The translations under genes were made by a program, and so were the position numbers. From the sequence record MK817115.1: 64,000 bases of DNA; one strand, written 5' to 3'. Shown one piece after another: positions 13,166-51,566 of the stretch. Under the pieces are notes generated by a model that made no database searches, was not told the origin of the DNA, and saw nothing but the letters and a program-made list of their open reading frames with translations. The stretch comes from Escherichia phage vB_EcoM_phAPEC6. Within the stretch, counting starts at the first letter, position 1, and every line of letters begins with the position of its first letter.

Positions 13166-13383
13166 ACCTCTTGTTTTTCTACGTAGCCTTTCCCATCACA
13201 GTGTGGACAAGCATAAAAGCTGCGGTAATCTTCTGACGGTACTTGTTGTGTTCCATTACATGTAGGACATACTTTACGTGCACCCGAAATAATACGTTCA
13301 TGGTGTTCAGCTTGTTTAGCTGAATCAAAAATACGACCATCTTCAGTTTGGTATTTTTCTACCATAACTTGAATTACTTTCAT
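13156..13383 (-). CDS. small zinc-ribbon protein
   Basis: CPTCNG ... CPHCDG two CxxC pairs. Confidence 0.5.
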   Translation of the reverse strand: MKVIQVMVEKYQTEDGRIFDSAKQAEHHERIISGARKVCPTCNGTQQVPSEDYRSFYACPHCDGKGYVEKQEVWK

Positions 13384-13393: not shown

Positions 13394-13663
13394 TTATAAA
13401 AATGTTAAATCTTCAGTACTTAATTGTGATAATTTACCATCATATTCAATTTCAACATATACATTTTGGTCATAAACAGCAACTACACGTTTAATAACTC
13501 CAATCTTCACGACATTCTTTTTGTAGTTGAACTCAACTGAACAACCAATAAGTTTATTTGATAGAATCTCACGTATTTGATTAGCATGGTCTTTTAGGAT
13601 AGAATTAATAGATTTTTTCATAATATATCTATCATTCAAATATTTTTTAACTACATCATGCAT
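13394..13663 (-). CDS. small helix+beta family protein (family C)
   Basis: N-terminal helix then LIGCSVEF...VVKIGVIKRV beta-rich pattern shared with other family C members. Confidence 0.45.
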   Translation of the reverse strand: MHDVVKKYLNDRYIMKKSINSILKDHANQIREILSNKLIGCSVEFNYKKNVVKIGVIKRVVAVYDQNVYVEIEYDGKLSQLSTEDLTFL

Positions 13664-13668
13664 AATTA

Positions 13669-14427
13669 TTACCTTTTGAAACGATTGAATGAGTACTCAT
13701 CTTTTTCTTTACGTAAGTATCTCATTCCACCACTTTGTGGAGTAGCGAGAGTTAAGTCACCCGTCAAGAACTGACTATCAATCCAAATGCGATTACCGTA
13801 AATTAGTGGATCTGTAACTGCTGTATGTCCACTAAAGACACAATGCACTCCATCTAACTTAGGTGCATAATATGTATTATTAGTTCTACAATAATCGAAT
13901 GTTTTTCTATCCCACAAGCACTTATCAATTATATCAGCACTAAGTGATTTTGTCCCATTAACAAATCGTTCCCATGTTGTATATTCCAACGGAACTCCAG
14001 CATGAACTAACCCAATCTTCAATCCTCGGTGATTGATTTGGATAATCATAGGGAGATCCTTTAAGTACTGACGAAAGAATTGAATGCCTGTTCCTCCAAC
14101 TTCATCAAGGAATTTATCACCACCATTACTTATCCAACAATGATACCAATCTCGAAGTGTTTCCGAATCAACGCACATCATCTCATGATTACCCGCAATC
14201 ATGTAACGATTTTCTCCGAACAAAAATTCAAAAAGGAGCTTTGAATTTTGTTCTCCACGGTCGATAATATCACCTACACTGAAAACATAATCATTGTGTG
14301 TAATACCAAATTCTTTCACTGTAGCATCCCATAGTTTACCATTACCATGCAAATCACCTACAATGTATAAATCTTTATCATCAGGTACGGTTACTTCTAA
14401 GAAGTGTTTCATTATTACTCCAACCAT
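13669..14427 (-). CDS. PPP-family Ser/Thr protein phosphatase (metallophosphatase)
   Basis: GDLHG, GDIIDRG, GNHE motifs. Confidence 0.75.
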   Translation of the reverse strand: MVGVIMKHFLEVTVPDDKDLYIVGDLHGNGKLWDATVKEFGITHNDYVFSVGDIIDRGEQNSKLLFEFLFGENRYMIAGNHEMMCVDSETLRDWYHCWISNGGDKFLDEVGGTGIQFFRQYLKDLPMIIQINHRGLKIGLVHAGVPLEYTTWERFVNGTKSLSADIIDKCLWDRKTFDYCRTNNTYYAPKLDGVHCVFSGHTAVTDPLIYGNRIWIDSQFLTGDLTLATPQSGGMRYLRKEKDEYSFNRFKR

Positions 14428-14666
14428 ATAATATTAGTGTGTTTAGTAACTTGTGTTCCAGCAAAAGAACCATCTTTAAGATAAGTATTAATTTTAAAAC
14501 GCCATTCACCACCACTAATATACATATCAGTAATAATATACTTTCCATACCCTCTGGAGTTTATTAATCGTACTTCTTGACCAATATATTTTGGCTTCAG
14601 ATCATTTATAAAATCATCAGCCAAAGACATAAGATATCGCAGATGTGATAAGTCAGTGTTGAACAT
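14415..14666 (-). CDS. small helix+beta family protein (family C)
   Basis: DLKPKYIGQEVRLIN motif. Confidence 0.5.
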   Translation of the reverse strand: MFNTDLSHLRYLMSLADDFINDLKPKYIGQEVRLINSRGYGKYIITDMYISGGEWRFKINTYLKDGSFAGTQVTKHTNIIWLE

Positions 14667-14881
14667 TATTTCTTTCTCTTATATTTGTTAATAATATCTT
14701 GGGTAAGTGAAATAAAAATATATACTAATGTTACAGGCCAAATAATAGCCATCAGTGCTGCTGTTTGGAGATTCATGATAATCATGATTTCATCTTTAAA
14801 ACAACCCCAATTGAGTACTAGAAAGTTGGTTATAAATGTAACAAATGCTACAAATCCATATATTGCAAAAAATGTTATCAT
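14666..14881 (-). CDS. small membrane protein (2 TM)
   Basis: Hydrophobic segments; ORF track. Confidence 0.5.
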   Translation of the reverse strand: MITFFAIYGFVAFVTFITNFLVLNWGCFKDEIMIIMNLQTAALMAIIWPVTLVYIFISLTQDIINKYKRKK

Positions 14882-14883
14882 AA

Positions 14884-15213
14884 TTATTCCTCATCATCCA
14901 CTAAAACAAGATAATCCAAACTCAACTCGGTATCTATGTAACAATCACAATTCAAGTACTCAATTTCAGCACCTATAGTTCTCCCATTCTTAAATATCTC
15001 AATGATTTTCATTCTAGTATTGGGATTAATGTGTTCAATGTCGTATTCGTATTCAGGGTCAATATACTCACTTGTCATACGTTTGATGTATTGTTCCGAA
15101 TATCGTACAGTTTTACCTATAAGATCATTACTCAACGTCTGATAAAAATCATCTTGAATTTTGAATAATGACCTATAAAAAATATTATGTTGAATTAGTG
15201 GTTTCATTGACAT
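14884..15213 (-). CDS. small helix+beta family protein (family C)
   Basis: SNDLIGKTVRYSEQ motif. Confidence 0.5.
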   Translation of the reverse strand: MSMKPLIQHNIFYRSLFKIQDDFYQTLSNDLIGKTVRYSEQYIKRMTSEYIDPEYEYDIEHINPNTRMKIIEIFKNGRTIGAEIEYLNCDCYIDTELSLDYLVLVDDEE

Positions 15214-15830
15214 TAATCACAACTTCCAGACGATGAACTTGAATCAGAACTAGAGCTATCATAGGAACAAGAATCAGAGGAAGAACTGCTGTGACGGCTA
15301 TAATCACTGTAATCATCATTGTTGTAGATTGGTGATGTTACGATTGCTGCTGCGGTCGCTGCCGTTGCAATTTGTGCAGTATGGTCATGAACATCTAGTT
15401 TTGGTTCATCCTTAGATTTACCTTTGTTCTTACCTTTAGTGTAACGAGCTTTCTTTGCAGTTTTAGTATTTTTCTGTACTTTAGGAGCTTTTGGTTTCAC
15501 ATCTTCAACTACTGGAACTACATTCACTACAACTTTAGGATCAGTTTCTTCAAGTGTATTATACACTTTAACTTGCATTTGAACTTCAACTTCTTTAACT
15601 TCTGGAATAACTGTTTCTGGTGCTGGAGTGATTTTATCAAGTTCTTTAGTAATAAAGAAGCTTGTATTTTTCTCACCTAGCATAACAAGAAGACCAATGG
15701 CAATCACTGGACTTAGTACTGTACCAAGTACTACATAACCTAGAACACTTCTGTTATAGTTATATGCAAGCATACCAGAAATAATAATACCGATTACATA
15801 TGCACTGCTAAGAATAATTGGGGTTAACAT
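15213..15830 (-). CDS. membrane protein with Lys-rich and Ser/Asp/Cys-rich low-complexity tail
   Basis: N-terminal TM helices, then KVQKNTKTAKKARYTKGKNKGKSK and SSSSSDSCSYDSSSSDSSSSSGSCD. Confidence 0.5.
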   Translation of the reverse strand: MLTPIILSSAYVIGIIISGMLAYNYNRSVLGYVVLGTVLSPVIAIGLLVMLGEKNTSFFITKELDKITPAPETVIPEVKEVEVQMQVKVYNTLEETDPKVVVNVVPVVEDVKPKAPKVQKNTKTAKKARYTKGKNKGKSKDEPKLDVHDHTAQIATAATAAAIVTSPIYNNDDYSDYSRHSSSSSDSCSYDSSSSDSSSSSGSCD

Positions 15831-16134
15831 ATTCTACTCCTTTGTATATAAATTTACTAACTTCTTCGATGTATAAAGACAACCCTGAACGTTCATTTAG
15901 AACTAACCAAGCACCAAAACCACATCGAATCTCGGATATACGAAACTCTTCTACACTATAAATTGAATACGCGTTAAATGGACATATTTCATCAGATATA
16001 CTTACCACATAGTTATTATTAATTGAATCTAACACCTGGGTATTGTATAAATTATTAGTACTGAAAATCTGCATTAACGAGCTAGAAAGCATCTCGGTTG
16101 TCTTTTCTAATATTGTTAAAAACGAACCATTCAC
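15808..16134 (-). CDS. hypothetical protein
   Basis: ORF track. Confidence 0.45.
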   Translation of the reverse strand: MNGSFLTILEKTTEMLSSSLMQIFSTNNLYNTQVLDSINNNYVVSISDEICPFNAYSIYSVEEFRISEIRCGFGAWLVLNERSGLSLYIEEVSKFIYKGVEYVNPNYS

Positions 16135-16191
16135 TTCAACTTCTCCCTATTGGTGATGTAATCAAATTATATCACCGAATTCTGATACGTC

Positions 16192-16497
16192 TCATGATAT
16201 TCGCATTTCATCTATATATAATGAACATGATTCAGAATTATCGTCTAAACTTAAACCTAAATCGACCATCAAACCGCAATGCGTTCCCCAGAATTTCTTT
16301 ATGTATAGTTTTTTGCTACTATTACCTAAATCATAAACATATTCATTTTTAAATATACTTTTTAATTCTTCACATATACATTTTATTATCTTCATTACTT
16401 GATTATGATATTCGTATGGTATTCCATCAAGTTCGTTAATTATTAATGCAAAACCATTATCATAGTACTTAAGTTTATTGAATGTTTGTATATCCAT
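16192..16497 (-). CDS. hypothetical protein
   Basis: ORF track. Confidence 0.45.
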   Translation of the reverse strand: MDIQTFNKLKYYDNGFALIINELDGIPYEYHNQVMKIIKCICEELKSIFKNEYVYDLGNSSKKLYIKKFWGTHCGLMVDLGLSLDDNSESCSLYIDEMRIS

Positions 16498-16794
16498 TTA
16501 ATATATAATCTCACTAGCTTCTATTGTGTAGACACCATCATCAGTCATTAATCTTACTGCAACTTTAATATTACTAGACATTCGTGTAACTATCAATCCA
16601 ATAATTATACCATTCTTTAAAGTACCATTATGGTATCTAACTTTTACTTCAGTTTTATTATCAATTAAGTATCTTCTAATTATGTGTATTTCATTTCTGA
16701 ATAATTCTAAAAAAGCTTCACTATTTTCTTTATCTGACCCGTCTGAACACCAGTACAATAAATTTACTTGTTCAAATAATTTTTTTATATTCAT
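16498..16794 (-). CDS. hypothetical protein (family C-like)
   Basis: ORF track; helix then beta-rich C-terminus. Confidence 0.4.
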   Translation of the reverse strand: MNIKKLFEQVNLLYWCSDGSDKENSEAFLELFRNEIHIIRRYLIDNKTEVKVRYHNGTLKNGIIIGLIVTRMSSNIKVAVRLMTDDGVYTIEASEIIY

Positions 16795-17150
16795 AAAAAT
16801 CTCACAGATTTAATATTACTGGTTACATGATTTACCCAAGTGTTATCGAACTTGTAAACAATTGTATTAAGTGATTTATGAAAATTAACCTCGCACACTA
16901 AAGCCTTGGAACCATTGATTGTACAGACCGTGGATGGTAAGTTGTTTGCTAATATCTCTTTTTCATCTAAACATAGTGAACTAATACAATCATAATAGAG
17001 AGGTTCAAGAACTTTTTCAGTACTGAGAAAGTCAAAAGAAAGATCATCTATTAGTTTTATGTAATCGAATAAATTATGATAATATTCATTCATTGTAGAT
17101 CCTTTTAAATTTAGCATTATTAGAATATGTATATGAATGACCAAAATCAT
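16791..17150 (-). CDS. hypothetical protein
   Basis: ORF track. Confidence 0.45.
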   Translation of the reverse strand: MILVIHIHILIMLNLKGSTMNEYYHNLFDYIKLIDDLSFDFLSTEKVLEPLYYDCISSLCLDEKEILANNLPSTVCTINGSKALVCEVNFHKSLNTIVYKFDNTWVNHVTSNIKSVRFL

Positions 17151-17337
17151 TTACACCATGTACATTTAGTACACCGTCACTGAAATAAATTCGATCAATA
17201 GTGAGTTCACGTTTATAATCCCAATCATCATACCAGCACAGAACACGAATGCCTTTGTACTTTGTAGTTAAATCATTTTCTAATATAGTCAAGTAATCAA
17301 TATGACTTTTGAATATCTCTAAGTCCTGCTCAAACAT
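17086..17337 (-). CDS. small helix+beta family protein (family C)
   Basis: DLTTKYKGIRVLCW motif. Confidence 0.5.
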   Translation of the reverse strand: MFEQDLEIFKSHIDYLTILENDLTTKYKGIRVLCWYDDWDYKRELTIDRIYFSDGVLNVHGVNDFGHSYTYSNNAKFKRIYNE

Positions 17338-17597
17338 TATTGTTCCTCGTATAATTCTATATCATCAACTCCAACTTGGCGAATTGCAGTACTTCTGATG
17401 AATGTATTTTTTTCAAACAAACATACTGTTAAACGTATTTCACACTTCAATGCACTGTAATAAATCATATCAATAACACCATATGTTTCATACATTTCTA
17501 CGTATACATTTCGACCTAAGTACTTTTCTTCTAAATCAGTAATTAGACTATTGATAAGATTACCTATCTGTGTTATATCTGTGTGAAATTTATCCAT
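17337..17597 (-). CDS. small helix+beta family protein (family C)
   Basis: DLEEKYLGRNVYVE motif. Confidence 0.5.
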   Translation of the reverse strand: MDKFHTDITQIGNLINSLITDLEEKYLGRNVYVEMYETYGVIDMIYYSALKCEIRLTVCLFEKNTFIRSTAIRQVGVDDIELYEEQ

Positions 17598-17773
17598 TAT
17601 AATAAACCTCTCACATAAAACATTGATGAAAATAGATAATCATCAGTACTTGTGTTTAGATGTTTAGAAAAGCTATATTTTTTATGTTTTTTTTCGTATA
17701 AAGACAATCTATAGAACATTTCTATATTTTCTAAGTATTCTTTTTGTAATAACATCTGTGTTTTTACATTCAT
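17597..17773 (-). CDS. small hypothetical protein (MNVKTQ...)
   Basis: ATG at 17773 with AAGGA RBS; track start 17842 would run through the pnk terminator. Confidence 0.4.
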   Translation of the reverse strand: MNVKTQMLLQKEYLENIEMFYRLSLYEKKHKKYSFSKHLNTSTDDYLFSSMFYVRGLL

Positions 17774-17785
17774 TATAATATTCCT

Positions 17786-17818
17786 TAAAAGAAAAAGGGA
17801 CCAACATATGATCCCTTT
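17786..17818 (-). terminator. rho-independent terminator downstream of pnk
   Basis: AAAGGGA-(11-nt loop)-TCCCTTT then TTCTTTT on minus strand. Confidence 0.55.
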
Positions 17819-17822
17819 TGTA

Positions 17823-18755
17823 TTAGAAATTTCCTTCTGCAACTTGAAAAACTTTCAAGCCAAGTAGCTTACGCCACATGAATACGACTTGTGTTCGGTC
17901 ATCATATACCTTTTTAACATCGTAATGATCAACCACATTTTTCATGTACAGGTCGAATTTTACAACATCATCAGGACGTTTATCATCGATATCTCGCATA
18001 AACAATGCATCGTAAGGAACACCCCAATTCTTAAGCCACTGTTCGGTATCCGCACGACACCCTTCAGTACGCCCACTCATGACGATAATCTTGCGTTTAT
18101 GAAAAACTGCTTCAGCGATAATAGACAAAATAACTTCTTCATCAGGTGTATCCTGAAGAACAGTACTTTCATCGTAAGGATTACGACCCCATTTATGAGC
18201 AAGAGTTCCATCGATATCAACGATGATAGCAGCTTCGCGTGAATTACCATAGTAACCAATGTGTAATGCTTTACTATAATAGTACGTATCTGCCATTTTG
18301 TCAATGATATCATCTGGTACTGAACGCTCACGCTGGAGGTTATATTTCTTACAAAGTTTTACGAACTCTTTAATCTTAAAGAATTCATGAACATCTGCAC
18401 CACGGTCTTCATTAGGTACAAAATCATCATAGAAGTTCTTTTCTTTGTAATCATAACCATTATCTGTAGCCCATACTTTCCAGAGATTACGGAAATGTGG
18501 TTTAAGGTTTGTATCGGATACTATGATGTTCCAACCATTCTCTGCTGCTGAATTTGCTGCACTGAACTGTAAATTATCTACGTACTGCTCATTAGCATCG
18601 TTGAATTTGTAAGCATCATGTGACCCAGCCATAGATTCACGAATATCATCACGGTTGATGTTGATAGTCTTGGATTTGGCTTTTTTAATCTCTTGCACTG
18701 CCCATGTAGTTTTACCACACCCAGGCAATCCAACTGTTAGTGTGATAGTTGGCAT
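17823..18755 (-). CDS. pseT: polynucleotide 5'-kinase / 3'-phosphatase (T4 Pnk-like)
   Basis: Walker A GLPGCGKTT; phosphatase DIDGTLA; C-terminus DDRTQVVFMWRKLLGLKVFQVAEGNF aligns with T4 Pnk [25 protein letters not shown]. Confidence 0.9.
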   Translation of the reverse strand: MPTITLTVGLPGCGKTTWAVQEIKKAKSKTININRDDIRESMAGSHDAYKFNDANEQYVDNLQFSAANSAAENGWNIIVSDTNLKPHFRNLWKVWATDNGYDYKEKNFYDDFVPNEDRGADVHEFFKIKEFVKLCKKYNLQRERSVPDDIIDKMADTYYYSKALHIGYYGNSREAAIIVDIDGTLAHKWGRNPYDESTVLQDTPDEEVILSIIAEAVFHKRKIIVMSGRTEGCRADTEQWLKNWGVPYDALFMRDIDDKRPDDVVKFDLYMKNVVDHYDVKKVYDDRTQVVFMWRKLLGLKVFQVAEGNF

Positions 18756-18758
18756 CCT

Positions 18759-19088
18759 TTAATCCTCTAAAAATTTAACATGCTCTATATTATGATAGGT
18801 GAGCCATTCCTGTGGTGTTCCCTTTCGTATTAAAACACCAATATACGCAATACCATTAATTAGACCATTACTATCAGTATTCACATCAACTTTCACAATC
18901 TCGGAATCGTACCAGTGTTTAAATGTGTAATCCCAACATCTGACTTTCTTCCCAATAAGATTGCTCTTGTATTTGTCAATCATTTCATCGACGATAGTTT
19001 GTACTGAATTTTTAATTTCAGCTTCTACTGACTTTATATATAGTAAATTACTTTGTGCATTGTTTATCATTATATTTCCCAACTCCAA
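18759..19088 (-). CDS. small helix+beta family protein (family C)
   Basis: DKYKSNLIGKKVRCWD motif. Confidence 0.5.
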   Translation of the reverse strand: MELGNIMINNAQSNLLYIKSVEAEIKNSVQTIVDEMIDKYKSNLIGKKVRCWDYTFKHWYDSEIVKVDVNTDSNGLINGIAYIGVLIRKGTPQEWLTYHNIEHVKFLED

Positions 19089-19284
19089 ATCGCTTGGAGA
19101 TTTTCACAAGTACAGATTCATCACAACGAATACTAGCAGTATCATTGGATGAACTGTACTTTAATGGGGTCCACTGTAATTGAGATTCTTCTAGGAACTT
19201 GATACATCTGAAATAATCTTTCAAGGAAAGAAATTTAACTACTGACATATCCTGAACAATACTATGCTGAACTTCAACTTTCAT
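19048..19284 (-). CDS. hypothetical protein
   Basis: ORF track. Confidence 0.4.
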   Translation of the reverse strand: MKVEVQHSIVQDMSVVKFLSLKDYFRCIKFLEESQLQWTPLKYSSSNDTASIRCDESVLVKISKRFGVGKYNDKQCTK

Positions 19285-19293
19285 ATGAACTCC

Positions 19294-19551
19294 TTATAGT
19301 GGGTCAAATTTATTTTCACGTTTCGATGTATAGCGAGTTACATCATGTATTCTCGGCTTAACACCTTTTGGTTTCCTTTTCTTCTTGTATTCAGTACTAC
19401 TACATCCGAAGGTATTCTCGATTCGTTTCTTACTTATCTTCACACCTTTCATTGAGCGTTTGTGCTGTAATTCATCGATTTCTTCTTGTATTTTCCTGAA
19501 CTCAGTCGGAGAAAGGGAACCGTCATTTTTATACTTAGGTTTAGCCATCAC
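19294..19551 (-). CDS. small basic protein
   Basis: Lys/Arg-rich; ORF track. Confidence 0.45.
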   Translation of the reverse strand: MMAKPKYKNDGSLSPTEFRKIQEEIDELQHKRSMKGVKISKKRIENTFGCSSTEYKKKRKPKGVKPRIHDVTRYTSKRENKFDPL

Positions 19552-19578
19552 TTCTCCTTGTGCTTAGGCTAGATAGTA

Positions 19579-20721
19579 CTAAAAATCCTTTAGTACAATT
19601 TTCATGTATTTTATAAGAGTCTCTTTGTAATCAACTTTCTTATTGTTATACATTGCAAAGGCCAAGCCCTGACGATTCAGTTCATTAGTTAAACACTCCT
19701 GAACCTTCATTGCGAATTCCTTTCGCTCCAAGTGCTTGTGTTCCTTGACGAAGCTTTCTACTTCATCTTGTAATGCATTATAGCACGAAAATACCAATTG
19801 TTCCATTCTTAATATCTTTTGCATAGCATATTCATCAGTACTGAACAATTGTTTTAAATCATCACTTGAACCATTTAATACTGCTTCATATAAATGAGAA
19901 TCAATAATAATACTATCTTTTGTAAGATGTAATGAACTGTACCAGTCAGTCTTTATTTTACACATTGTCCCATTATTTAGGATGCACACAAAACCCTCAA
20001 TATCAAGCATTTTATGAACTTCCTCCACGCTTTCACGGAAGGTATTTCGTACCGGAAAAGTGTGATGAATATCTTTTCCAGTCATATTAGTACTGTACTG
20101 TGCAAGACATGGAAACTTATCACGTAGTGCTTTACCACATAGCAACTCACCACTCACACGATGACGAACGTTCAGTACAAACAGTTGTTCTACCTGATAT
20201 GGTAATACAATTCGGTACTCTGGGCTTGTATACTCCATATTAACTGTGTAACCTAAACGTTCCGCTTCGTCGATGTACTGATACAAATTCTGGTTCTCGT
20301 TAATAAGTCGAGTACTGTTAATCGCATGGTCAGAATACAATGCAGTATGTGATTTACAACGAATCTCACCATCATTATCACGGTAAGTACTGATAATCGA
20401 ACCATCCAACTTAGGCATCACTACCGCAATGTCATCGCATGTGGTGTTAGCAGGGAACATTGTAGCAGGATTCTCGTAAGCATTGAAGAACTTTTTCATT
20501 GTACGTGCTGCACAACGTATCATTTCACCTTCTTCATCAATTTCCCACATAGAGCCACGGGTTTCCAACGCATTTGGTTGCATGAAATCAGTGTATGATG
20601 CTAGACGATAACTGAATACACGATACGTGCCACCAGCAGGACTTTTATGATCCACATAAAAGAATGCATCGTTTGTATTACATAAGTGCATTAAATCTTC
20701 ATATATTTGCAAAAGGGTCAT
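19579..20721 (-). CDS. rnlA: RNA ligase 1 (T4 Rnl1/gp63-like)
   Basis: TYRVFSYRLASYTDF and MPKLDGS (KxDG) align with T4 Rnl1 TYRIFSYNYASYSDW / TKEDGS; similar length. Confidence 0.9.
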   Translation of the reverse strand: MTLLQIYEDLMHLCNTNDAFFYVDHKSPAGGTYRVFSYRLASYTDFMQPNALETRGSMWEIDEEGEMIRCAARTMKKFFNAYENPATMFPANTTCDDIAVVMPKLDGSIISTYRDNDGEIRCKSHTALYSDHAINSTRLINENQNLYQYIDEAERLGYTVNMEYTSPEYRIVLPYQVEQLFVLNVRHRVSGELLCGKALRDKFPCLAQYSTNMTGKDIHHTFPVRNTFRESVEEVHKMLDIEGFVCILNNGTMCKIKTDWYSSLHLTKDSIIIDSHLYEAVLNGSSDDLKQLFSTDEYAMQKILRMEQLVFSCYNALQDEVESFVKEHKHLERKEFAMKVQECLTNELNRQGLAFAMYNNKKVDYKETLIKYMKIVLKDF

Positions 20722-21026
20722 TTTATTACCTCTATATCTACATCAGTTCCATAATATGATATTAATCCATCATCAGATTCACACTGAATAGACAACTCAG
20801 ATTCATAGTATGTTACTTTATTCACTGTTAGTACTTGTTCTTCAATTACTCCAGAAAAATAATTCATCTCACGTACACGAACTTTAGTTCCTTTAGGTAG
20901 TTCATCTGAGATTTTTCGAACAAGATCATAAGCAGCCTGTTCAAGTGTGTACAGTAATTGTAATCTATCTTGAATATTCATATTATTTCCACCAACTGGT
21001 ATCACGTCCATTAGACAAAGATTCAT
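20718..21026 (-). CDS. small helix+beta family protein (family C-like)
   Basis: ISDELPKGTKVRVRE motif. Confidence 0.45.
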   Translation of the reverse strand: MNLCLMDVIPVGGNNMNIQDRLQLLYTLEQAAYDLVRKISDELPKGTKVRVREMNYFSGVIEEQVLTVNKVTYYESELSIQCESDDGLISYYGTDVDIEVIK

Positions 21027-21672
21027 TGTACTGATGCCTAAAATTAGTTTTTGGATTATTGTTCATAGTACTAATAAAATCAAATTTAACATTCTCTTGA
21101 ATATATTTTTTAACACTATCTTTAAATTTAATAGTACTGAAGTCTAAATCTAGATGTTCATACAATACCGGATGACAAAACTCATGTGTACGCAACGCTG
21201 GCATGGTATCCTTAATGTATTGCACAGTGTTAATCATTGCATTGTATTCCGGCATAGCACGCATCATCATTAGCTGAAAGTGTTCTTCCTCTGACATTGA
21301 CTCATCCAAATCAATAACGACTTCATCATTTTTAGAGTCATAAACTTTAATGGTACTCTTGGTTGGATCAAGCATAGCCCACTCTGGATACAGGCATGTT
21401 TTCCAAAAAGGATTATTGCACTGAAACATACTAATGAGATTTTGATCTTTATCAAAAATAGCAAATCCAAGATCCGAACTTGGTTGTACTTCACATACAC
21501 AAATATCGTAAGACGAGTCTTCAGTACTGAGTGAACCAACTACATTTGATATATGTGAATATGGAGTTTCTCTTGACTCCAACTGAAATGTACTTTCAAT
21601 TCGATTGATTTGTGGATGTAATGTAATTACACCCCTTAGTACATATAAAATTCTATCTAAATCTTTAATCAA
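20983..21672 (-). CDS. hypothetical protein, divergent EE-FQ family member
   Basis: SEEEHFQLMMM. Confidence 0.45.
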   Translation of the reverse strand: MIKDLDRILYVLRGVITLHPQINRIESTFQLESRETPYSHISNVVGSLSTEDSSYDICVCEVQPSSDLGFAIFDKDQNLISMFQCNNPFWKTCLYPEWAMLDPTKSTIKVYDSKNDEVVIDLDESMSEEEHFQLMMMRAMPEYNAMINTVQYIKDTMPALRTHEFCHPVLYEHLDLDFSTIKFKDSVKKYIQENVKFDFISTMNNNPKTNFRHQYNESLSNGRDTSWWK

Positions 21673-22247
21673 AATTCTATCCCCGTATCAGTTAATTTCG
21701 TTCCGTCCATGTACTTAACAGTTATTTCAATGCGTCGATCAGTACTCAATTTTTGAAGATCATTGTAGTACAATTTAAATTCTTCAAAGAACTCAAGTGG
21801 TGGAATATCGTATAAAGTACTAATCTGGAAGTGCTCAGGTAATCCAAATTCCAATATATCAATCTTAGGCATAAGTCCATCGGCTGCTGCACCTTCTGGA
21901 GTACTGCTATCTGCTACATAAAACATAGAATTACCATGACGCTGGATAACGAATATGCAATCATCTTCACTTACATAAATCATATTTCCAAGGTATGGAT
22001 CGTTATCACACCAATTATCATGGACGAGTTGTTCAACTTGAAGTAAATCTTTTATAATTCCCTGACCACTATCGTCAACTAGAATATGTAAACCAGAACA
22101 ATCTTTGCTCAACCAGCGGTATCTTGCATCACATCCTGATTCCATAAATGGATATTTTGAAAAATCCATATCAGTACCATTATAAAACCAATCGTACCAC
22201 TCATTACGCATACTAATCAGCTTAGTACTTAATTCTAATACATTCAT
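21669..22247 (-). CDS. EE-FQ family paralogue (dispersed copy)
   Basis: LPEHFQISTLYDIP. Confidence 0.5.
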   Translation of the reverse strand: MNVLELSTKLISMRNEWYDWFYNGTDMDFSKYPFMESGCDARYRWLSKDCSGLHILVDDSGQGIIKDLLQVEQLVHDNWCDNDPYLGNMIYVSEDDCIFVIQRHGNSMFYVADSSTPEGAAADGLMPKIDILEFGLPEHFQISTLYDIPPLEFFEEFKLYYNDLQKLSTDRRIEITVKYMDGTKLTDTGIEF

Positions 22248-22254
22248 TTTAGTT

Positions 22255-22557
22255 TTATCCTCTTAATTTAATAGTACTGGCTGGATATTCTACAAAAGTA
22301 TTATCTGGTAATCCTATACAGTAATAAGGTAAATACCCCATCTTTATATTAATACCAATTAAAATTCCTGTTTTATATGAAGTATTAATTCCATAGTAAT
22401 CGTCTATATCAACAGCAAGTCCATATAATGATATGTTACAATCCTTGATGTATCGGTCAAACATTTTATACATTGATGGATATAAAGTTCCATTGGATTG
22501 TCTCACCAAATCAGCCAACATTTTGATAGTACTGTTAATTAAATCTATACTGAACAT
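22255..22557 (-). CDS. hypothetical protein
   Basis: ORF track. Confidence 0.45.
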   Translation of the reverse strand: MFSIDLINSTIKMLADLVRQSNGTLYPSMYKMFDRYIKDCNISLYGLAVDIDDYYGINTSYKTGILIGINIKMGYLPYYCIGLPDNTFVEYPASTIKLRG

Positions 22558-22570
22558 CTTTGTACCTGCG

Positions 22571-22594
22571 AAAAAAGACCAGCAAACGCTGGCC
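22571..22594 (-). terminator. rho-independent terminator downstream of 22602..22883
   Basis: GGCCAGC-GTTT-GCTGGTC then TTTTTT on minus strand. Confidence 0.5.
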
Positions 22595-22601
22595 TAAGAA
22601 T

Positions 22602-22883
22602 TTAAATTATTTCATAAAGACAATATACACCATCAACGCCAGCATCAGGAAAATCAACATAGAAATTCACACTAACAGTGTCGTAATCTATATCAGTGAT
22701 TCGTCCGGTTTTACCTACACTTTTTACAAATATATCAGACCCAAGATACACAAACTCGAACTCGTCAGCATACTCTTTTATGATATCTGCGAACCTACAA
22801 CCACACCTAGGTTCTGTGTTAATAATTTCAAGATATAATGTAATATATTGTTCGTATGTCCATGTGTGTAGATAAAAATCCAT
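22602..22883 (-). CDS. hypothetical protein
   Basis: ORF track. Confidence 0.45.
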   Translation of the reverse strand: MDFYLHTWTYEQYITLYLEIINTEPRCGCRFADIIKEYADEFEFVYLGSDIFVKSVGKTGRITDIDYDTVSVNFYVDFPDAGVDGVYCLYEII

Positions 22884-22893
22884 AGAAGTTTCC

Positions 22894-23631
22894 TTAGAAA
22901 TATATCATACCCATCAATTCAGAATCGGCGGGGCGAGTATAACCTTGCTTCTTAACTTTAAAATAGAATGATTCATGCTCTTCTAAATTATAACGTTTTT
23001 TCAAGCAACGAGTGTATGTCTGACAATTTGGGTGAACCCATTCATAAATGTGAATGCCATTTTCGTCATAACCATTTATACTACAACGATTTCCTTCATG
23101 CTTCATAAAGTTTTTACTTTTTTCAGTAAATTCTTTCACTGTAGTTGTATATGGAGATTTGTATTCAAAAGGAACTTCAGTCATACGAAAATAATAGTAT
23201 TCTTCGTCTTCATCATATCCCAAGAGCACTGTGTTAGTTTCACGTACATTGTAATGATTCTTACTTTTTAATTCATTTTCGTATATATCTTTCAGTACTT
23301 CTGCAAAAACTTCATCGCTTGATGCATTAGGATTAGATACACCTGATACTCGGCGTTCAATAATAAAATCAGTGAATTTGCGGTCTTCGGCAATATCTTC
23401 GTTCATATAAAGACTAACAAACTTATCCTTATATGTCTTTACACTATATTGCTTACTTTGTACTTCACTATAAACATCTGCTAACATATTCTCCTGACCA
23501 CACTGCACACCACTTACAGAATAAGCACATGCATGTTCAGCCATTACTGATGTTAACATTTGGAAATTTGCCATGTTTAATTCATTCGCCATCTCTGTAG
23601 CGAAACGGATACGGTCAAGCATTTCACACAC
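22894..23631 (-). CDS. hypothetical protein
   Basis: ORF track. Confidence 0.5.
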   Translation of the reverse strand: MCEMLDRIRFATEMANELNMANFQMLTSVMAEHACAYSVSGVQCGQENMLADVYSEVQSKQYSVKTYKDKFVSLYMNEDIAEDRKFTDFIIERRVSGVSNPNASSDEVFAEVLKDIYENELKSKNHYNVRETNTVLLGYDEDEEYYYFRMTEVPFEYKSPYTTTVKEFTEKSKNFMKHEGNRCSINGYDENGIHIYEWVHPNCQTYTRCLKKRYNLEEHESFYFKVKKQGYTRPADSELMGMIYF

Positions 23632-23662
23632 TCCTTGTGTTAATTATTGTTCCTTACCCATT

Positions 23663-23690
23663 ATTATATCATGAATTAGACTATTGTCCC
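23663..23690 (-). promoter_or_regulatory. candidate promoter with extended -10 (TGATATAAT)
   Basis: Minus-strand reading of 23663-23671; weak -35 GGGACA. Confidence 0.3.
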
Positions 23691-23959
23691 TGTTTATAGC
23701 AATAAAGATTCTCTAATTTAAAATCTACTAGATCACATTCAGAACGTACTCGATTCTTGTTCCAGAATAAAATACGAATCCTTTCATAATCACGATAAAC
23801 ACTAATAATGCTTCTGTGCTTGGATTTGTAGTACTCCTGTACTATCCCCAGATACACAGTCCTCAATAAAGACTTAGTTGGATATGGCATATTCTGTGCT
23901 GACGTGATATCGTAAATCATCTTCATTGTTTCAGCAACAAGTACTTCATTTGTTCTCAT
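23681..23959 (-). CDS. hypothetical protein (MRTNEV...)
   Basis: ATG at 23959; track start 23977 lies inside the upstream small ORF. Confidence 0.45.
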   Translation of the reverse strand: MRTNEVLVAETMKMIYDITSAQNMPYPTKSLLRTVYLGIVQEYYKSKHRSIISVYRDYERIRILFWNKNRVRSECDLVDFKLENLYCYKQGQ

Positions 23960-24122
23960 TGTAATCCTTACATACACTATGTAAAGTAAATCCTAATCCA
24001 ACACCGACAAATGGAAATAGTAAATTGATATACCAAGTATTAATTGTTGAAAGGAAACAAATCCCACATACTGTCAGTACTGCCAATGAAAAAAGACTCC
24101 AGATAAAAAATACTGTTCTCAT
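23946..24122 (-). CDS. unlisted small hydrophobic membrane protein (58 aa)
   Basis: Own translation MRTVFFIWSLFSLAVLTVCGICFLSTINTWYINLLFPFVGVGLGFTLHSVCKDYNENK; ATGA overlap with stop of 24119..24409. Confidence 0.4.
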   Translation of the reverse strand: MRTVFFIWSLFSLAVLTVCGICFLSTINTWYINLLFPFVGVGLGFTLHSVCKDYNENK

Positions 24123-24409
24123 AAAAATGTTACCTCATCAAATGAAAAGTTTAAGTACGTTGTTGAATCTTGGTCTAAACTATGAATAGTAATATGACCA
24201 TTGAAATAAAAAGAAACATCAACTATTTGAAGTTTTGGGTATTTTCTAGTACTGAAATACCTTCCTACTACTAAGTCAGAAAACATATTTCTGTATTCTT
24301 GTGTTACGTTTTTGTATAGGTTATGTAGAGCACTTTCTTGTGAATCGAAAGTAATGGAATAATCTTTCACCAATATAGCATATGTTTTCTGCATTAAAAT
24401 GATATTCAT
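24119..24409 (-). CDS. small helix+beta family protein (family C)
   Basis: FSDLVVGRYFS motif. Confidence 0.5.
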   Translation of the reverse strand: MNIILMQKTYAILVKDYSITFDSQESALHNLYKNVTQEYRNMFSDLVVGRYFSTRKYPKLQIVDVSFYFNGHITIHSLDQDSTTYLNFSFDEVTFL

Positions 24410-24669
24410 AAATCTCCTAATATCTCAAAAATTATTGATATTGGGTATACTGGGTTATCAGATGAAGTAACACATACTATTAGTACGTTTTTTCCAGGTG
24501 CTACATCCTTTACCGTGAAATTAATATTATTAAGAATCAGTGATTTACCAATATAATGCTCTTTCAATAATTCAACAAAATAATCCAGTACTGGATTATC
24601 TGCACTATATGATAACTCAGTACTTGATATCATTTTATATGTATGAACTATTAGTTCAGCTTTAGTCAT
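24406..24669 (-). CDS. small helix+beta family protein (family C)
   Basis: LKEHYIGKSLILNN; start set at ATG 24669 (MTKAEL) to avoid a 131-nt overlap. Confidence 0.45.
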   Translation of the reverse strand: MTKAELIVHTYKMISSTELSYSADNPVLDYFVELLKEHYIGKSLILNNINFTVKDVAPGKNVLIVCVTSSDNPVYPISIIFEILGDL

Positions 24670-24862
24670 GAACACGCTCACAATTAAGGCAATAAATGCA
24701 CTCAATGTCAGGTCGCCATGATTTATCAAAATCTTTGTGCTGTTCTTCGGTGTATTCTGCATCATCATTAATAGGGAAGAAATCACCAGCACCAGTCGCC
24801 CAGTCTGAATCTAAACGGAAACGAGCTAATTGAGTACTGTTACAATATGGACATTTATTCAA
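24662..24862 (-). CDS. small zinc-ribbon protein
   Basis: CPYCNS ... CIYCLNC. Confidence 0.45.
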   Translation of the reverse strand: MNKCPYCNSTQLARFRLDSDWATGAGDFFPINDDAEYTEEQHKDFDKSWRPDIECIYCLNCERVHD

Positions 24863-25139
24863 AATTTATTCCTTCTAACTGATATACGTTTAATGAAAAT
24901 GACCCATTATTATTATCGCATCTGAAACACAGTGTTAAAGAACCATTAAAACTAACAACATCAGTACATATACATTTTTCACCATTGGATATGATAGATT
25001 TTCCTATATATAAATCTCTTACTATAGTACGGTAATGTTGCCATAAAAAATAATACACACTTTCATAGTACTCATCTTTTACATATGACAAGTATAAGAA
25101 TTTATAAAATACTTGTATTTCCTTTAAGTTGTTTTTCAT
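24855..25139 (-). CDS. small helix+beta family protein (family C, DIQFTYK subgroup)
   Basis: LKEIQVFYKFLYLSY ... DLYIGKSII. Confidence 0.5.
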   Translation of the reverse strand: MKNNLKEIQVFYKFLYLSYVKDEYYESVYYFLWQHYRTIVRDLYIGKSIISNGEKCICTDVVSFNGSLTLCFRCDNNNGSFSLNVYQLEGINFE

Positions 25140-25413
25140 TCTCCAACTCCAGTAAATTTACACCAATCCAATCAACATCACTATCAGTACTTAATTCCAA
25201 TCGTAGCTTACCGCTATGACTAACAATATCGCGGAATTTGTATATTTTATTATCACGAACTATACACAAATCATGGTAATATTCATGTAATTCATCCAAA
25301 AACTTTATCCATACCGAACGATAGATTTCACCGTAGAGATATTCTCCAGCATCAACCGTAGCGTATTGGATATACAAAAATTTGTATGTGAATTGTATAT
25401 CATTTAATAACAT
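25102..25413 (-). CDS. small helix+beta family protein (family C, DIQFTYK subgroup)
   Basis: MLLNDIQFTYKFLYIQY. Confidence 0.5.
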   Translation of the reverse strand: MLLNDIQFTYKFLYIQYATVDAGEYLYGEIYRSVWIKFLDELHEYYHDLCIVRDNKIYKFRDIVSHSGKLRLELSTDSDVDWIGVNLLELENEKQLKGNTSIL

Positions 25414-25423
25414 ATGTAACCTC

Positions 25424-25735
25424 TTATAAATTCACCAACTTCACAACTTTAATCTCGATAAATCCCCTATCGGTTATTTCAAGAAATTCAACATGGATAA
25501 TCCCATTGTATGATTTAACTCCAGAGAACTCGAATATATCATTTCCGTCGATAAAAGTACTGTAATTCTTTTTTATATATTCACCTACTGAATCTAAGTA
25601 CTCAATATATAAATCAATAAATGGTTGTTCTTTGTATGGGTTATGTGAACCTATTTTGTTACTAACAAGGTATACATCATACAAATCATATAGGATCTTA
25701 TAAGTGAATTGTATATCATTTAAATTTAATCCCAA
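25424..25735 (-). CDS. small helix+beta family protein (family C, DIQFTYK subgroup)
   Basis: LNDIQFTYKILYDLY. Confidence 0.5.
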   Translation of the reverse strand: MGLNLNDIQFTYKILYDLYDVYLVSNKIGSHNPYKEQPFIDLYIEYLDSVGEYIKKNYSTFIDGNDIFEFSGVKSYNGIIHVEFLEITDRGFIEIKVVKLVNL

Positions 25736-25992
25736 GGGAATATCTCCAACGGAATACTGGTAAATCCAAAATCAGTGTAGTACTGAACCTCAACTTTACC
25801 ATCACGTCTAATGATTATATCAGAAAATTCTGCATGGTCATCACCAATAATAACAGTACTGAATTTTTTTTTAATCTTACCACGAATTGTATGAATCATT
25901 TCAGTGCATGTGTCTTCTAGACTAGGGCTATCATTGTCGTGTGCTAAATCTCGAATAATCTTGTATGTTAGTAGGAAATCTTTATAATTCAT
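25726..25992 (-). CDS. small helix+beta family protein (family C, DIQFTYK subgroup)
   Basis: MNYKDFLLTYKIIRDL. Confidence 0.5.
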   Translation of the reverse strand: MNYKDFLLTYKIIRDLAHDNDSPSLEDTCTEMIHTIRGKIKKKFSTVIIGDDHAEFSDIIIRRDGKVEVQYYTDFGFTSIPLEIFPWD

Positions 25993-26264
25993 ATGTCCAC
26001 CAAATCTATACTATATCTTTCATTAGTATTACTATCTATAAATGATAGTACTAATTTACCACCAAAACTATTAACTTGTTCTATCTTCTGTTTTTTACCA
26101 CGAATGATTATCTCACTATTAACAAAATATTCACGTATCATTATTAAGTGATTAATCCAGATAGTATGAGTGAATGTGTTTTCTCGTATTGTATTGAGAT
26201 ATCTTCCATTGTGATGTAAATCAAACAAAACACTGTATGTATATTGTAGAACTTTATAATTCAT
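25989..26264 (-). CDS. small helix+beta family protein (family C, DIQFTYK subgroup)
   Basis: MNYKVLQYTYSVLFDL. Confidence 0.5.
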   Translation of the reverse strand: MNYKVLQYTYSVLFDLHHNGRYLNTIRENTFTHTIWINHLIMIREYFVNSEIIIRGKKQKIEQVNSFGGKLVLSFIDSNTNERYSIDLVDI

Positions 26265-26275: not shown

Positions 26276-26304
26276 CAAAAATAGCCCGAACTTATGTCGG
26301 GCTA
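26276..26304 (-). terminator. rho-independent terminator downstream of 26311..26997
   Basis: TAGCCCGA-CATAAGT-TCGGGCTA then TTTTTG on minus strand. Confidence 0.55.
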
Positions 26305-26310
26305 TGTACA

Positions 26311-40615: not shown

Positions 40616-40669
40616 CTCTAGTTAAAATCAAGTATAACACACCTGAATGCTCTTGTAAAGCCATAAACA

Positions 40670-40690
40670 CAAAAAGACCCATACGGGTCT
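40670..40690 (-). terminator. rho-independent terminator directly after 40691..41257
   Basis: AGACCC-ATAC-GGGTCT with flanking A-run and T-run. Confidence 0.55.
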
Positions 40691-44471: not shown

Positions 44472-44530
44472 TGTGTTATAACCCTTTACAATTAATATAA
44501 AGGGATTATATCACAAAAAATCGGTGGGTG

Positions 44531-46124: not shown

Positions 46125-46129
46125 TTGTT

Positions 46130-51064: not shown

Positions 51065-51065
51065 T

Positions 51066-51557: not shown

Positions 51558-51566
51558 TTTATAATC

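What the first reader, a model, noticed from the sequence alone, without database searches (positions are those of the whole stretch)
13394..26264. Third expanded family: about 90-aa helix-plus-beta proteins, including a six-gene tandem block
At least 14 small proteins interleaved with the enzyme genes share an N-terminal amphipathic helix followed by a 'D-L-x-x-K-Y-x-G-[KR]-x-V' turn and a beta-rich C-terminus (for example DLKPKYIGQEVRLIN, DLEEKYLGRNVYVE, DKYKSNLIGKKVRCWD). The block 24119..26264 is a tandem subgroup with N-termini like LNDIQFTYKFLY. One more copy sits in the EE-FQ array at 48617..48925.
Basis: seen in the sequence. Interest (0 to 1): 0.5.

Follow-up and report, generated by a model that had tools for sequence, protein, structure and literature searches.

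The report
Expanded small helix-plus-SH3-barrel phage protein family
A jumbo E. coli phage carries about twenty fast-evolving copies of one small gene, each predicted to fold as a helix packed against a small SH3-like barrel, clustered among its RNA-repair enzyme genes; the family is real and undescribed, but what it does is unknown.

Summary
The window is from an Asteriusvirus jumbo phage (99.4% identical to Escherichia phage SHEFM2K). Single-genome BLAST links only five tandem genes. Profiles built from orthologs in five related genomes join 19-20 window ORFs, plus 12 each in Klebsiella phages K64-1 and RaK2, into one superfamily. Reversed and shuffled decoys stayed out in all but the last round, and leave-one-orthogroup-out tests support it.

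The family has no Pfam match and sits in singleton PHROGs. Among 1.84 billion representative proteins it is found only in this lineage. It evolves 2-3 times faster than its neighbours (omega below 1) and varies in copy number from 15 to 21. Only core residues are conserved, most members are acidic, and none appears in the RaK2 virion proteome.

Best reading: non-enzymatic intracellular binding modules diversified by duplication, probably aimed at host targets. That function is inferred, not shown.

The parts
13394..13663 (-). family member, 89 aa, directly downstream of the Ser/Thr phosphatase gene
   Evidence: LOO HMM E 4.2e-6 with 0 of 1686 decoys above it. LOO hhalign E 2.1e-7 over 75 columns.
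14415..14666 (-). family member, 83 aa (DLKPKYIGQEVRL), directly upstream of and overlapping the phosphatase gene; target of one AF2 model
14884..15213 (-). family member, 109 aa, with an insertion in the barrel
   Evidence: hhalign E 8.2e-6. LOO HMM E 0.068 with 1 decoy above it. Pairwise profile links to 14415 and 18759 at E ~1e-5.
16192..16497 (-). doubtful member, 101 aa
   Evidence: Recruited late in the iteration but fails cross-validation: LOO HMM E 1.7 with 25 decoys above it; hhalign E 0.012.
16498..16794 (-). family member, 98 aa
   Evidence: LOO HMM E 0.017 with 0 decoys above it. hhalign E 2.8e-6 over 84 columns.
   Evidence: hhalign against the superfamily gives E 2e-5 over 73 columns, probability 77%. 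The HMM gave only E 0.048.
17086..17337 (-). family member, 83 aa (DLTTKYKGIRVLC)
   Evidence: LOO HMM E 0.02 with 0 decoys above it. hhalign E 2.7e-8.
17337..17597 (-). family member, 86 aa (DLEEKYLGRNVYV)
   Evidence: LOO HMM E 0.0028 with 0 decoys above it. hhalign E 3.4e-4. Profile link to 48617 at E 6.7e-5.
18759..19088 (-). family member, 103-109 aa (KSNLIGKKVRCW), directly upstream of the PNK gene
   Evidence: LOO HMM E 3.4e-5. hhalign E 2.2e-7. A K64-1 member (gp603) occupies the same position upstream of PNK.
20718..21026 (-). family member, 102 aa, with a 4-nt overlap onto the RnlA RNA ligase start
   Evidence: hhalign E 1.6e-4. LOO HMM E 0.19 with 2 decoys above it. K64-1 gp597 and RaK2 ORF463 are members in the same RnlA-upstream position.
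22255..22557 (-). borderline candidate, 100 aa
   Evidence: hhalign E 1.5e-3 over 44 columns. HMM E 0.05-0.08, never included.
22602..22883 (-). family member, 93 aa, the most acidic (pI 4.1)
   Evidence: hhalign E 1.4e-6. LOO HMM E 0.16 with 3 decoys above it. Sub-threshold Pfam KOW hit at E 0.1.
24119..24409 (-). family member, 96 aa, first gene of the tandem block
   Evidence: Joins the tandem cluster on HMM iteration. LOO HMM E 0.0058 with 0 decoys above it. hhalign E 5.2e-4.
24406..24669 (-). family member, 87 aa (EHYIGKSLIL); the longer 128-aa ORF reaching 24792 is not the annotated start
   Evidence: LOO HMM E 3.5e-4. hhalign E 8.6e-5. Annotated as 264 nt in SHEFM2K.
24855..25139 (-). 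family member, 94 aa, tandem core; target of one AF2 model
25102..25413 (-). family member, 103 aa, tandem core (LNDIQFTYKFLY)
   Evidence: BLASTP E 7e-7 to 25424. hhalign E 2.9e-10.
25424..25735 (-). family member, 103 aa, tandem core
   Evidence: BLASTP. LOO HMM E 0.0014. hhalign E 2.9e-5.
25726..25992 (-). family member, 88 aa, tandem core
   Evidence: BLASTP E 4e-5 to 25424. LOO HMM E 5.3e-4. hhalign E 1.9e-6.
25989..26264 (-). family member, 91 aa, the promoter-proximal gene of the tandem block
   Evidence: BLASTP E 4.5e-6 to 24855. hhalign E 4.4e-9. A terminator-like hairpin at 26305..26281 lies immediately upstream.
48617..48925 (-). outlying family member, 102 aa (EEKYAGRKVLC), embedded in another paralog array
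   Evidence: LOO HMM E 4.3e-6 with 0 decoys above it. hhalign E 8.2e-6.
   Evidence: LOO HMM E 4.6e-4 with 0 decoys above it. hhalign E 1.3e-4, covering only the helix-plus-motif part.
24662..24862 (-). NOT a member: a 66-aa CxxC...CxxC zinc-ribbon ORF interposed in the tandem block
   Evidence: Sequence read; never recruited by the HMM. K64-1 has a 66-aa 'TFIIS-like' ORF among its family members.

Best explanation
These ORFs form one lineage-restricted multigene family of about 20 small (83-130 aa), soluble, mostly acidic proteins per genome.

Shown or strongly supported:
- The genes descend from a common ancestor by repeated duplication. The most recent duplications are the five contiguous genes 24855..26264.
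- They are real genes under purifying but relaxed selection.
- Each is predicted to fold as one or two N-terminal helices whose C-terminal end, together with a glycine turn (the 'KYxG[KR]xV' motif), leads into a five-stranded SH3/Tudor/KOW-like beta-barrel.
- Only buried hydrophobic positions and the turn glycine are conserved; surface residues vary freely.
- Copies are gained, lost and exchanged as alleles between related phages.
- In the sister genus, the members are absent from virions.

Inferred:
- The proteins are not enzymes. They are stoichiometric intracellular binders made from the long polycistronic, translationally coupled units that also encode the RNA-repair and nucleotide enzymes (RnlA, PNK, phosphatase).
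- One stable scaffold presents many different surfaces, so each paralog probably binds a different host (or phage) macromolecule.
- Their acidity makes protein targets more likely than nucleic acid.
- Rapid divergence and copy turnover fit targets that themselves vary between hosts, such as defence or takeover targets.
- The specific targets are unknown.
For: Homology:
- hhalign top 28 of 561 pairs are all within the candidate set.
- The iterated HMM admitted no decoy below the inclusion threshold until one reversed decoy reached E 0.0072 in the final round.
- LOO HMM: 13 of 20 beat all 1686 decoys.
- LOO hhalign: E 3e-10 to 5e-4, against a best reversed null of 0.019.

Fold:
- Two AF2 models at pLDDT 88.8 and 89.2, pTM 0.76 and 0.75.

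No catalytic signature:
- The lowest-entropy columns are L/I/V/Y/F plus one Gly.
- No Pfam hit and no PDB sequence hit.

Real genes evolving fast:
- Omega is 0.34-0.46 for the family and 0.11-0.15 for neighbours (p<=0.001), all below 1.
- Median identity to phages A4 and JNE01 is 41% and 33% for the family, against 76% and 74% for other genes.

Turnover and distribution:
- 15-21 copies in the syntenic interval of five Asteriusvirus genomes, and 12 in K64-1.
- One copy is present in ECO103 and others but absent here.
- Whole-genome census: 20 hits, all on one strand within 49 kb.
- Restricted lineage: 23 genuine clusters among 1.84e9 representative proteins, all orthologs of window members. None in the Munch, CBB or GAP32 loci.

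Other:
- Not virion proteins: the RaK2 members ORF452-479 are absent from the 54-protein virion MS table.
- Acidic: 14 of 19 have pI below 6.
- Operon-like packing.
Against: - There is no direct functional evidence of any kind: no expression timing, no partner, no phenotype.
- Both AF2 models used essentially the same alignment of about 40 sequences, so they are not independent. Only 2 of about 20 members were modelled.
- Several members are supported by one statistic only. 14884, 20718, 22602 and 25989 have 1-3 decoys above them in the LOO HMM test.
- For the more diverged genomes, 'orthologs' may partly be paralogs, which would inflate apparent divergence.
- Small non-family neighbours also evolve fairly fast (family vs small non-family identity p = 0.01-0.1), so the rate contrast is partly a small-accessory-gene effect.
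- The sigma-70 promoter scan was uninformative (81 found, 90 expected), so 'early' expression rests only on analogy with T4-like gene order.
- In phAPEC6 one 12.33-kDa virion protein (single peptide) could not be mapped. It has the same mass as member 25102.
Confidence: 0.55

Rival explanations
1. There is no family. The shared 'helix, then G-x-x-V, then beta' pattern is convergence or composition in an AT-rich genome full of small ORFs, and only the five-gene tandem block is truly paralogous.
For: - Single-sequence BLASTP and phmmer link the scattered copies only at E 0.006-0.02, while shuffled decoys reach 0.03.
- No column is invariant, and mean column identity is 18%.
- PHROGs keeps nearly every member in its own family.
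Against: - Reversed-sequence decoys keep composition and helix/strand periodicity. None crossed the E<0.01 inclusion threshold until the final round, when one reached E 0.0072.
- Cross-validated scores beat all 1686 decoys for 13 members.
- LOO hhalign separates members (<=5e-4) from same-size neighbours (>=0.03) by two orders of magnitude or more, and alignments span 50-85 columns rather than just the motif.
- AF2 gives the same architecture for a tandem and a scattered member.
Confidence: 0.05
2. They are packaged internal or ejected proteins, analogous to the T4 internal proteins (IPI-III). On this reading they are small, polymorphic, carry a conserved N-terminal targeting segment ('LNDIQFTYKFLY'), and are injected with the DNA to neutralise host nucleases.
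For: - The tandem subgroup shares a conserved N-terminus with a more variable remainder.
- The family is polymorphic between strains.
- The phAPEC6 virion proteome contains an unmapped 12.33-kDa protein (gp182c, 1 peptide) with the same mass as member 25102 at 12.30 kDa.
Against: - None of the 12 RaK2 members (ORF452-479) is among the 54 virion proteins found by MS/MS; the nearest are gp493 and gp496.
- At most 4 of the 62 phAPEC6 virion proteins are in the family's size range.
- The conserved N-terminus is modelled as helix 1 of a packed helical hairpin at pLDDT ~94, so it is part of the fold rather than a cleavable leader.
- The genes lie among nucleotide/RNA-enzyme genes, far from the structural clusters.
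Confidence: 0.07
3. They are nucleic-acid- or RNA-polymerase/ribosome-associated factors that use the barrel as KOW/Tudor/CarD domains do. For example, they could be accessory subunits for the adjacent RNA-repair enzymes (RnlA, PNK) or modulators of host RNAP through the beta lobe.
For: - A family member sits immediately upstream of, and overlaps, RnlA and PNK in both Asteriusvirus and Alcyoneusvirus.
Against: - No Pfam CarD_TRCF_RID or KOW match; the best is E 0.1 for one member.
- Most members are acidic (net charge down to -11), which argues against direct nucleic-acid binding.
- There are about 20 members but only 3 adjacent enzymes.
- GAP32, CBB and Munch keep RnlA and PNK without detectable family members.
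Confidence: 0.15

Closest known systems
Tudor-like RNAP-interacting domains: CarD/TRCF RID (Pfam PF02559; PDB 4l5g) and the UvrD/PcrA C-terminal Tudor domain (PDB 7egs_B, 5dma)
   Different: - Sequence identity is 4-20% and there is no Pfam match.
- Here the helices precede the barrel and pack on it, whereas CarD has a C-terminal helical domain.
- The RNAP-contact residues are not identifiable.
- Binding to RNAP is untested.
KOW / SH3-like barrels of NusG, Spt5 and EF-P/eIF5A domain I (Pfam PF00467 and relatives), and chromo/Tudor/BAH 'royal family' domains
   Different: - None reaches any Pfam gathering threshold.
- KOW domains are basic and bind RNA or ribosomes; this family is mostly acidic.
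- No aromatic cage as in chromo/Tudor readers is conserved.
Lineage-specific paralog families of jumbo phages (RaK2: 'nearly 10% of gene products are paralogues', PMC3622015) and the clusters of small early accessory genes in T4-like phages
   Same: - Small ORFan genes in same-strand polycistronic runs among nucleotide/RNA-enzyme genes.
- Duplicated in tandem.
- Highly variable between related phages.
- Non-structural.
   Different: - This particular superfamily has not been delineated. PHROGs splits it into ~15 singleton families, and only phrog_21004 joins 4 members.
- Here a common fold and about 20 copies per genome are established.
T4 internal proteins (IPI/IPII/IPIII)
   Same: Small, polymorphic, fast-evolving phage proteins with a conserved N-terminal segment. 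IPI* is an anti-restriction protein.
   Different: - The RaK2 members are absent from the virion MS list.
- The N-terminus is part of the fold.
- No sequence similarity.

Membership tests
One paralogous superfamily (common descent of the listed ORFs) | Statistically significant profile-level similarity that survives cross-validation and structure-preserving decoys | tested here: met
   Met for 18-19 ORFs, borderline for 22255, not met for 16192.
One paralogous superfamily (common descent of the listed ORFs) | Same predicted three-dimensional architecture in different subgroups | tested here: met
SH3-like barrel fold class (Tudor/chromo/KOW) | A barrel of about 50 residues with five bent antiparallel strands that superposes on solved representatives | tested here: met
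CarD_TRCF_RID (Pfam PF02559) | Match to the family HMM at or above the gathering score | tested here: not met
   The family does not appear in hmmscan at E<=1 for any of 20 ORFs.
CarD_TRCF_RID (Pfam PF02559) | Binding to the RNAP beta-subunit lobe | not testable with these tools
   Needs pull-down, two-hybrid or complex prediction.
KOW (Pfam PF00467) | Match to the KOW HMM at or above the gathering score (22.3 bits) | tested here: not met
   The best is 12.9 bits (E 0.1) for 22602..22883; the others give nothing.
Sm/Hfq-like fold (N-terminal helix + five bent strands) | Structural superposition on Sm/LSm/Hfq proteins | tested here: inconclusive
Packaged internal proteins (T4 IP-like) | Presence in purified virions | tested here: not met
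   The RaK2 members ORF452-479 are absent from RaK2 Table S3 of 54 virion proteins. For Asteriusvirus itself the phAPEC6 list could not be mapped.
Any existing curated protein family (Pfam, PHROGs, PDB sequences) | A significant match that unites the members | tested here: not met
   Pfam: none. PHROGs: ~15 separate unknown-function families. PDB profile search: best E 0.12.

The most novel reading that the evidence does not exclude
The family could be a phage-encoded 'binder library'. On this reading, one helix-plus-Tudor/SH3 scaffold has been duplicated about 20 times and diversified on its surface, so each copy neutralises or redirects a different host protein. Possible targets include RNAP via its beta lobe (as CarD and UvrD-CTD bind it), defence-system components, proteases and RNA-damage effectors. 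The copies would be exchanged as allele cassettes between co-circulating jumbo phages in an arms race with E. coli and Klebsiella strains.
Probability: 0.2. Interest if true: 0.7.

Novelty: new member of a known kind. Interest (0 to 1): 0.4.

Why it matters
More than 80% of the genes in these 350-kb phages are 'hypothetical'. Collapsing about 20 ORFans per genome, currently scattered over ~15 singleton PHROGs, into one family with a confident predicted fold makes that dark matter easier to work on. One scaffold can now be expressed, crystallised and screened. The tandem block 24119..26264 is a natural deletion target. The between-strain allele mosaic points to the surfaces under selection. If the members prove to be host-protein binders or anti-defence factors, the family would be a compact source of new inhibitors from therapeutic-candidate coliphages. 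If not, it is still a clean example of gene-family birth and turnover inside a virus.

Tried and rejected
- Plain BLASTP and phmmer within the window were too weak for the scattered copies, so ortholog-enriched profiles replaced them.
- The first all-vs-all hhalign run timed out and was rerun in parallel.
- Pfam on 20 ORFs gave only noise.
- The PDB sequence-profile search gave a best E of 0.12 to Ocr, matching only an acidic helix.
- PHROGs returned singleton families of unknown function.
- The 5.8-billion-protein word-indexed search and the exhaustive 1.84-billion HMM search returned only Asteriusvirus orthologs of window members.
- The two long hits P0050 and P0051 are an LRR protein and a low-complexity protein, so both are spurious repeat matches.
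- I looked for diverged members at the syntenic positions of Munch, CBB and GAP32 by profile-profile comparison with a reversed null. None was found: best forward E 0.044 against a best null of 0.018.
- The sigma-70 promoter scan showed no enrichment (81 found, 89.9 expected), so it says nothing about timing. Terminator-like sites were modestly enriched (11 found, 4.4 expected).
- The afdb50 fold library was unavailable.
- I tried to map the family onto the phAPEC6 virion proteome. phAPEC6 is not in the phage collection, its gp numbering is not collinear with PBECO4, and molecular-weight matching is ambiguous. The RaK2 proteome was used instead.
- 61662..62006 was recruited at E 0.005 in the last HMM round. 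I rejected it because its LOO E is 0.36, it belongs to the 28-member family, and a reversed decoy scored 0.007 in the same round.
- Literature searches found no description of this family.

Full report
**Source and context**

The 64-kb window is 99.4% identical to Escherichia phage SHEFM2K. It is 95-99% identical to about 20 other Asteriusvirus jumbo phages of ~350 kb, including PBECO4 and 121Q. All genes in the window lie on the minus strand, and GC content is about 32%.

The region 13394..26264 contains three annotated enzymes: a NinI-like Ser/Thr phosphatase, the PseT polynucleotide kinase and the RnlA RNA ligase. It also contains some 30 'hypothetical' ORFs. These are tightly packed, with -1/-4/-8 nt start/stop overlaps and mostly SD-like sites, as expected for long, translationally coupled polycistronic units.

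**Is the family real?**

Within the window alone, BLASTP finds only one significant cluster in the region: the five contiguous genes 24855..26264 (E 1e-5 to 1e-7). The scattered ORFs link only at E~0.006, which is close to shuffled decoys at 0.03.

I therefore fetched the syntenic regions of eight relatives spanning 87% to ~65% DNA identity: Ecwhy_1, ph0011, A4, JNE01, Munch, K64-1, CBB and GAP32. From these I built an ortholog alignment for each of 34 small window proteins, 19 of them candidates and 15 neighbouring controls. Four tests followed.

- All-vs-all hhalign: the best 28 of 561 pairs were all candidate-candidate, and the first pair involving a control appeared at E~1e-3.
- Iterated HMM search: starting from three orthogroups (14415, 14884, 18759), I searched all minus-strand ORFs of the window and nine loci, spiked with reversed and shuffled copies of every ORF. 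It converged on 118 sequences. No decoy fell under the inclusion threshold until the last round, when one reversed decoy reached 0.007.
- Leave-one-orthogroup-out HMM: 13 of 20 window members outscore all 1686 decoys, and four more have only 1-3 decoys above them.
- Leave-own-orthogroup-out hhalign against the superfamily profile: members score E 3e-10 to 5e-4 over 26-84 aligned columns. The best reversed-alignment null is 0.019, and true non-members score 0.03-0.64.

The last test also flags 16791..17150 (E 2e-5 over 73 columns) as a probable member and 22255..22557 (E 1.5e-3) as borderline. 16192..16497 (E 0.012; LOO HMM E 1.7) is not supported.

**The motif**

The lowest-entropy columns of the whole alignment are all L/I/V/Y/F plus that one glycine. 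No polar residue is conserved.

**Fold**

I ran AlphaFold2 on a 40-41-row alignment of window paralogs plus database orthologs.

- For tandem member 24855..25139: pLDDT 88.8, pTM 0.76, helices 5-21 and 26-44, then strands 48-51, 54-64, 67-74 and 80-84.
- For scattered member 14415..14666: pLDDT 89.2, pTM 0.75, helix 7-27, then strands 31-34, 42-51, 54-62, 68-75 and 79-81.

In both models the motif covers the last helical turn, the Gly turn and strand 1. The tandem subgroup's conserved N-terminus ('LNDIQFTYKFLY') is simply an extra first helix.

- For 14415: RBBP1 chromo 6.8, R67 DHFR 6.8, BAH, NusG/Spt5 KOW, ERCC6L2 Tudor and HspQ, with PcrA and UvrD again.

Foldseek against BFVD gives, as the best matches to the 14415 model, uncharacterized proteins of 121Q (top hit), RaK2 (rank 17) and Klebsiella phage Seu621 (rank 30), at E 0.004-0.05.

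One caveat applies. Both models rest on overlapping alignments, and only two members were modelled.

**Databases**

- None of 20 ORFs has a Pfam hit.
- PHROGs assigns almost every member to its own unknown-function family; only phrog_21004 joins four members.
- A PDB sequence-profile search finds nothing.
- The profile search of 5.8 billion proteins returned 31 hits.
- The exhaustive search of 1.84 billion cluster representatives returned 25 hits, two of them spurious repeat or low-complexity proteins.
- Every genuine hit is an ortholog of a window member from an Asteriusvirus phage or a phage contig labelled E. coli.

**Distribution and dynamics**

By local profile search the family also has 12 members in Klebsiella phage K64-1 and 12 in RaK2: ORF452, 456, 460, 461, 463, 467, 469, 471, 472, 473, 478 and 479. 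No members are detectable in the syntenic loci of Munch, CBB or GAP32.

In contrast, neighbouring non-family small proteins (19048, 19294, 27186, 30680) are conserved out to GAP32.

A six-frame census of a complete 352-kb relative (ECO103 4-12-1) finds 20 hits at E<1e-4. All are on one strand within 244.6-293.2 kb, which corresponds to window 13.4-62 kb. Eighteen of them lie in the 13-kb segment, and the best reversed decoy scores 0.073. One of these (250343..250597) has no counterpart in the window, so that member shows a presence/absence polymorphism.

Copy number in the syntenic interval is 15-21 among five Asteriusvirus genomes.

Against the diverged genomes A4 and JNE01, family members are 41% and 33% identical (median), versus 76% and 74% for other genes (p = 0.02 and 5e-5). 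NG86 omega is 0.34-0.46 versus 0.11-0.15 (p<=0.001). All omega values are below 1, so these are real constrained genes evolving fast.

dS varies sharply between adjacent genes. For example, 24119 and 24406 are 94% and 88% identical to A4 but only 56% and 45% identical to Ecwhy_1, while 25102 is 99% identical to Ecwhy_1 and 41% to A4. This indicates cassette-like allele exchange.

Fourteen of 19 members have pI below 6, and net charge goes down to -11.

**Position relative to the enzymes**

In the window a member sits immediately upstream of each enzyme gene: 14415 before the phosphatase (13-nt overlap), 18759 before PNK, and 20718 before RnlA (4-nt overlap). K64-1 and RaK2 also have members immediately upstream of PNK (gp603/ORF469) and RnlA (gp597/ORF463). 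Whether this reflects functional coupling or just conserved gene order is unknown.

**Virion association**

RaK2's 54 MS-identified virion proteins include none of gp451-gp488. The paper maps all virion proteins to two other genome clusters (PMC3622015).

In phAPEC6, an Asteriusvirus, only 4 of 62 virion proteins fall in the 12-15 kDa range (PMC7247149). I could not map its gene numbers. One single-peptide 12.33-kDa protein has the same mass as member 25102 and as several non-family ORFs. That ambiguity remains open.

**Interpretation**

Shown or strongly supported:
- a single paralogous family;
- a helix plus SH3-like barrel fold;
- conservation of the core only;
- fast evolution, copy turnover and recombination;
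- restriction to Asteriusvirus and Alcyoneusvirus;
- no virion association in RaK2.

Inferred: these are non-enzymatic intracellular binding modules. One stable scaffold presents diversified surfaces, so the paralogs probably bind different host (or phage) macromolecules. Their acidity makes protein targets more likely than nucleic acid.

**Novelty**

Paralog families are known in general terms for these phages: 'nearly 10%' of RaK2 proteins are paralogues (PMC3622015). I found no description of this superfamily or its fold in the genome papers I consulted. I rate it a new, lineage-specific family of a well-known fold class, of moderate interest until a function is found.

Noticed in passing
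window 37392..62006 and 47273, 60241..63977: BLASTP clustering shows two other, larger paralog families on the same strand. One has 28 members of ~110-195 aa (37392..62006). The other has 12 members of ~63-88 aa (47273 and a tandem run 60241..63977). Members 48617 and 59883 of the present family are embedded among them.
   Followed up: no
window 24119..25413 compared with L002 and L004: There is sharp allele mosaicism. 24119 and 24406 are 94% and 88% identical to phage A4 but 56% and 45% identical to Ecwhy_1. The adjacent 25102 is 99% identical to Ecwhy_1 and 41% to A4, and dS jumps from ~0 to above 1.5 between neighbouring genes. This implies cassette-like recombination among co-circulating Asteriusvirus phages.
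   Followed up: partly
between window 19070 and 19048 (absent here); OR844650 250343..250597; L003 14668..14922; L004 15341..15595; L005 14319..14573: Many relatives carry an extra ~84-aa family member between the orthologs of 18759 and 19048. It is missing from this window, SHEFM2K and PBECO4. This is the ~280-bp indel that splits many megablast alignments into two pieces.
   Followed up: partly
window 19048..19284 and 19294..19551: Two small proteins (78 and 85 aa) lie between PNK and RnlA. Unlike the family, they are highly conserved: 93-99% within Asteriusvirus, with orthologs at E 1e-20 to 1e-31 in GAP32, CBB and Munch (19048 also in K64-1). Omega is very low. They may be conserved partners of the RNA-repair module.
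   Followed up: no
window 24662..24862: A 66-aa ORF with two CxxC pairs (zinc-ribbon-like) interrupts the tandem block. K64-1 has a 66-aa ORF annotated 'transcription factor IIS-like protein' (gp587) at a comparable place among its family members.
   Followed up: no
window 26305..26281, 22595..22576, 17819..17793 (minus strand): These are strong intrinsic-terminator-like hairpins. The first lies only ~17 nt before the start codon of the first tandem-block gene, which leaves no room for a promoter. The block would therefore have to be expressed by read-through.
   Followed up: no
ortholog of window 16498..16794 in public databases (P0023; ph0011 WAE77043.1): This 98-aa family member is named 'Mononegavirus-type SAM-dependent 2'-O-MTase domain-containing protein' in UniRef and GenBank records. 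The name is almost certainly a spurious automatic annotation, because no Pfam methyltransferase hit exists.
   Followed up: partly
window 13156..13383: This 75-aa ORF has CxxCxGxG-type zinc-finger repeats (annotated 'chaperone protein'/DnaJ-like in relatives). It lies just downstream of the first family member and is conserved to Salmonella phage Munch.
   Followed up: no
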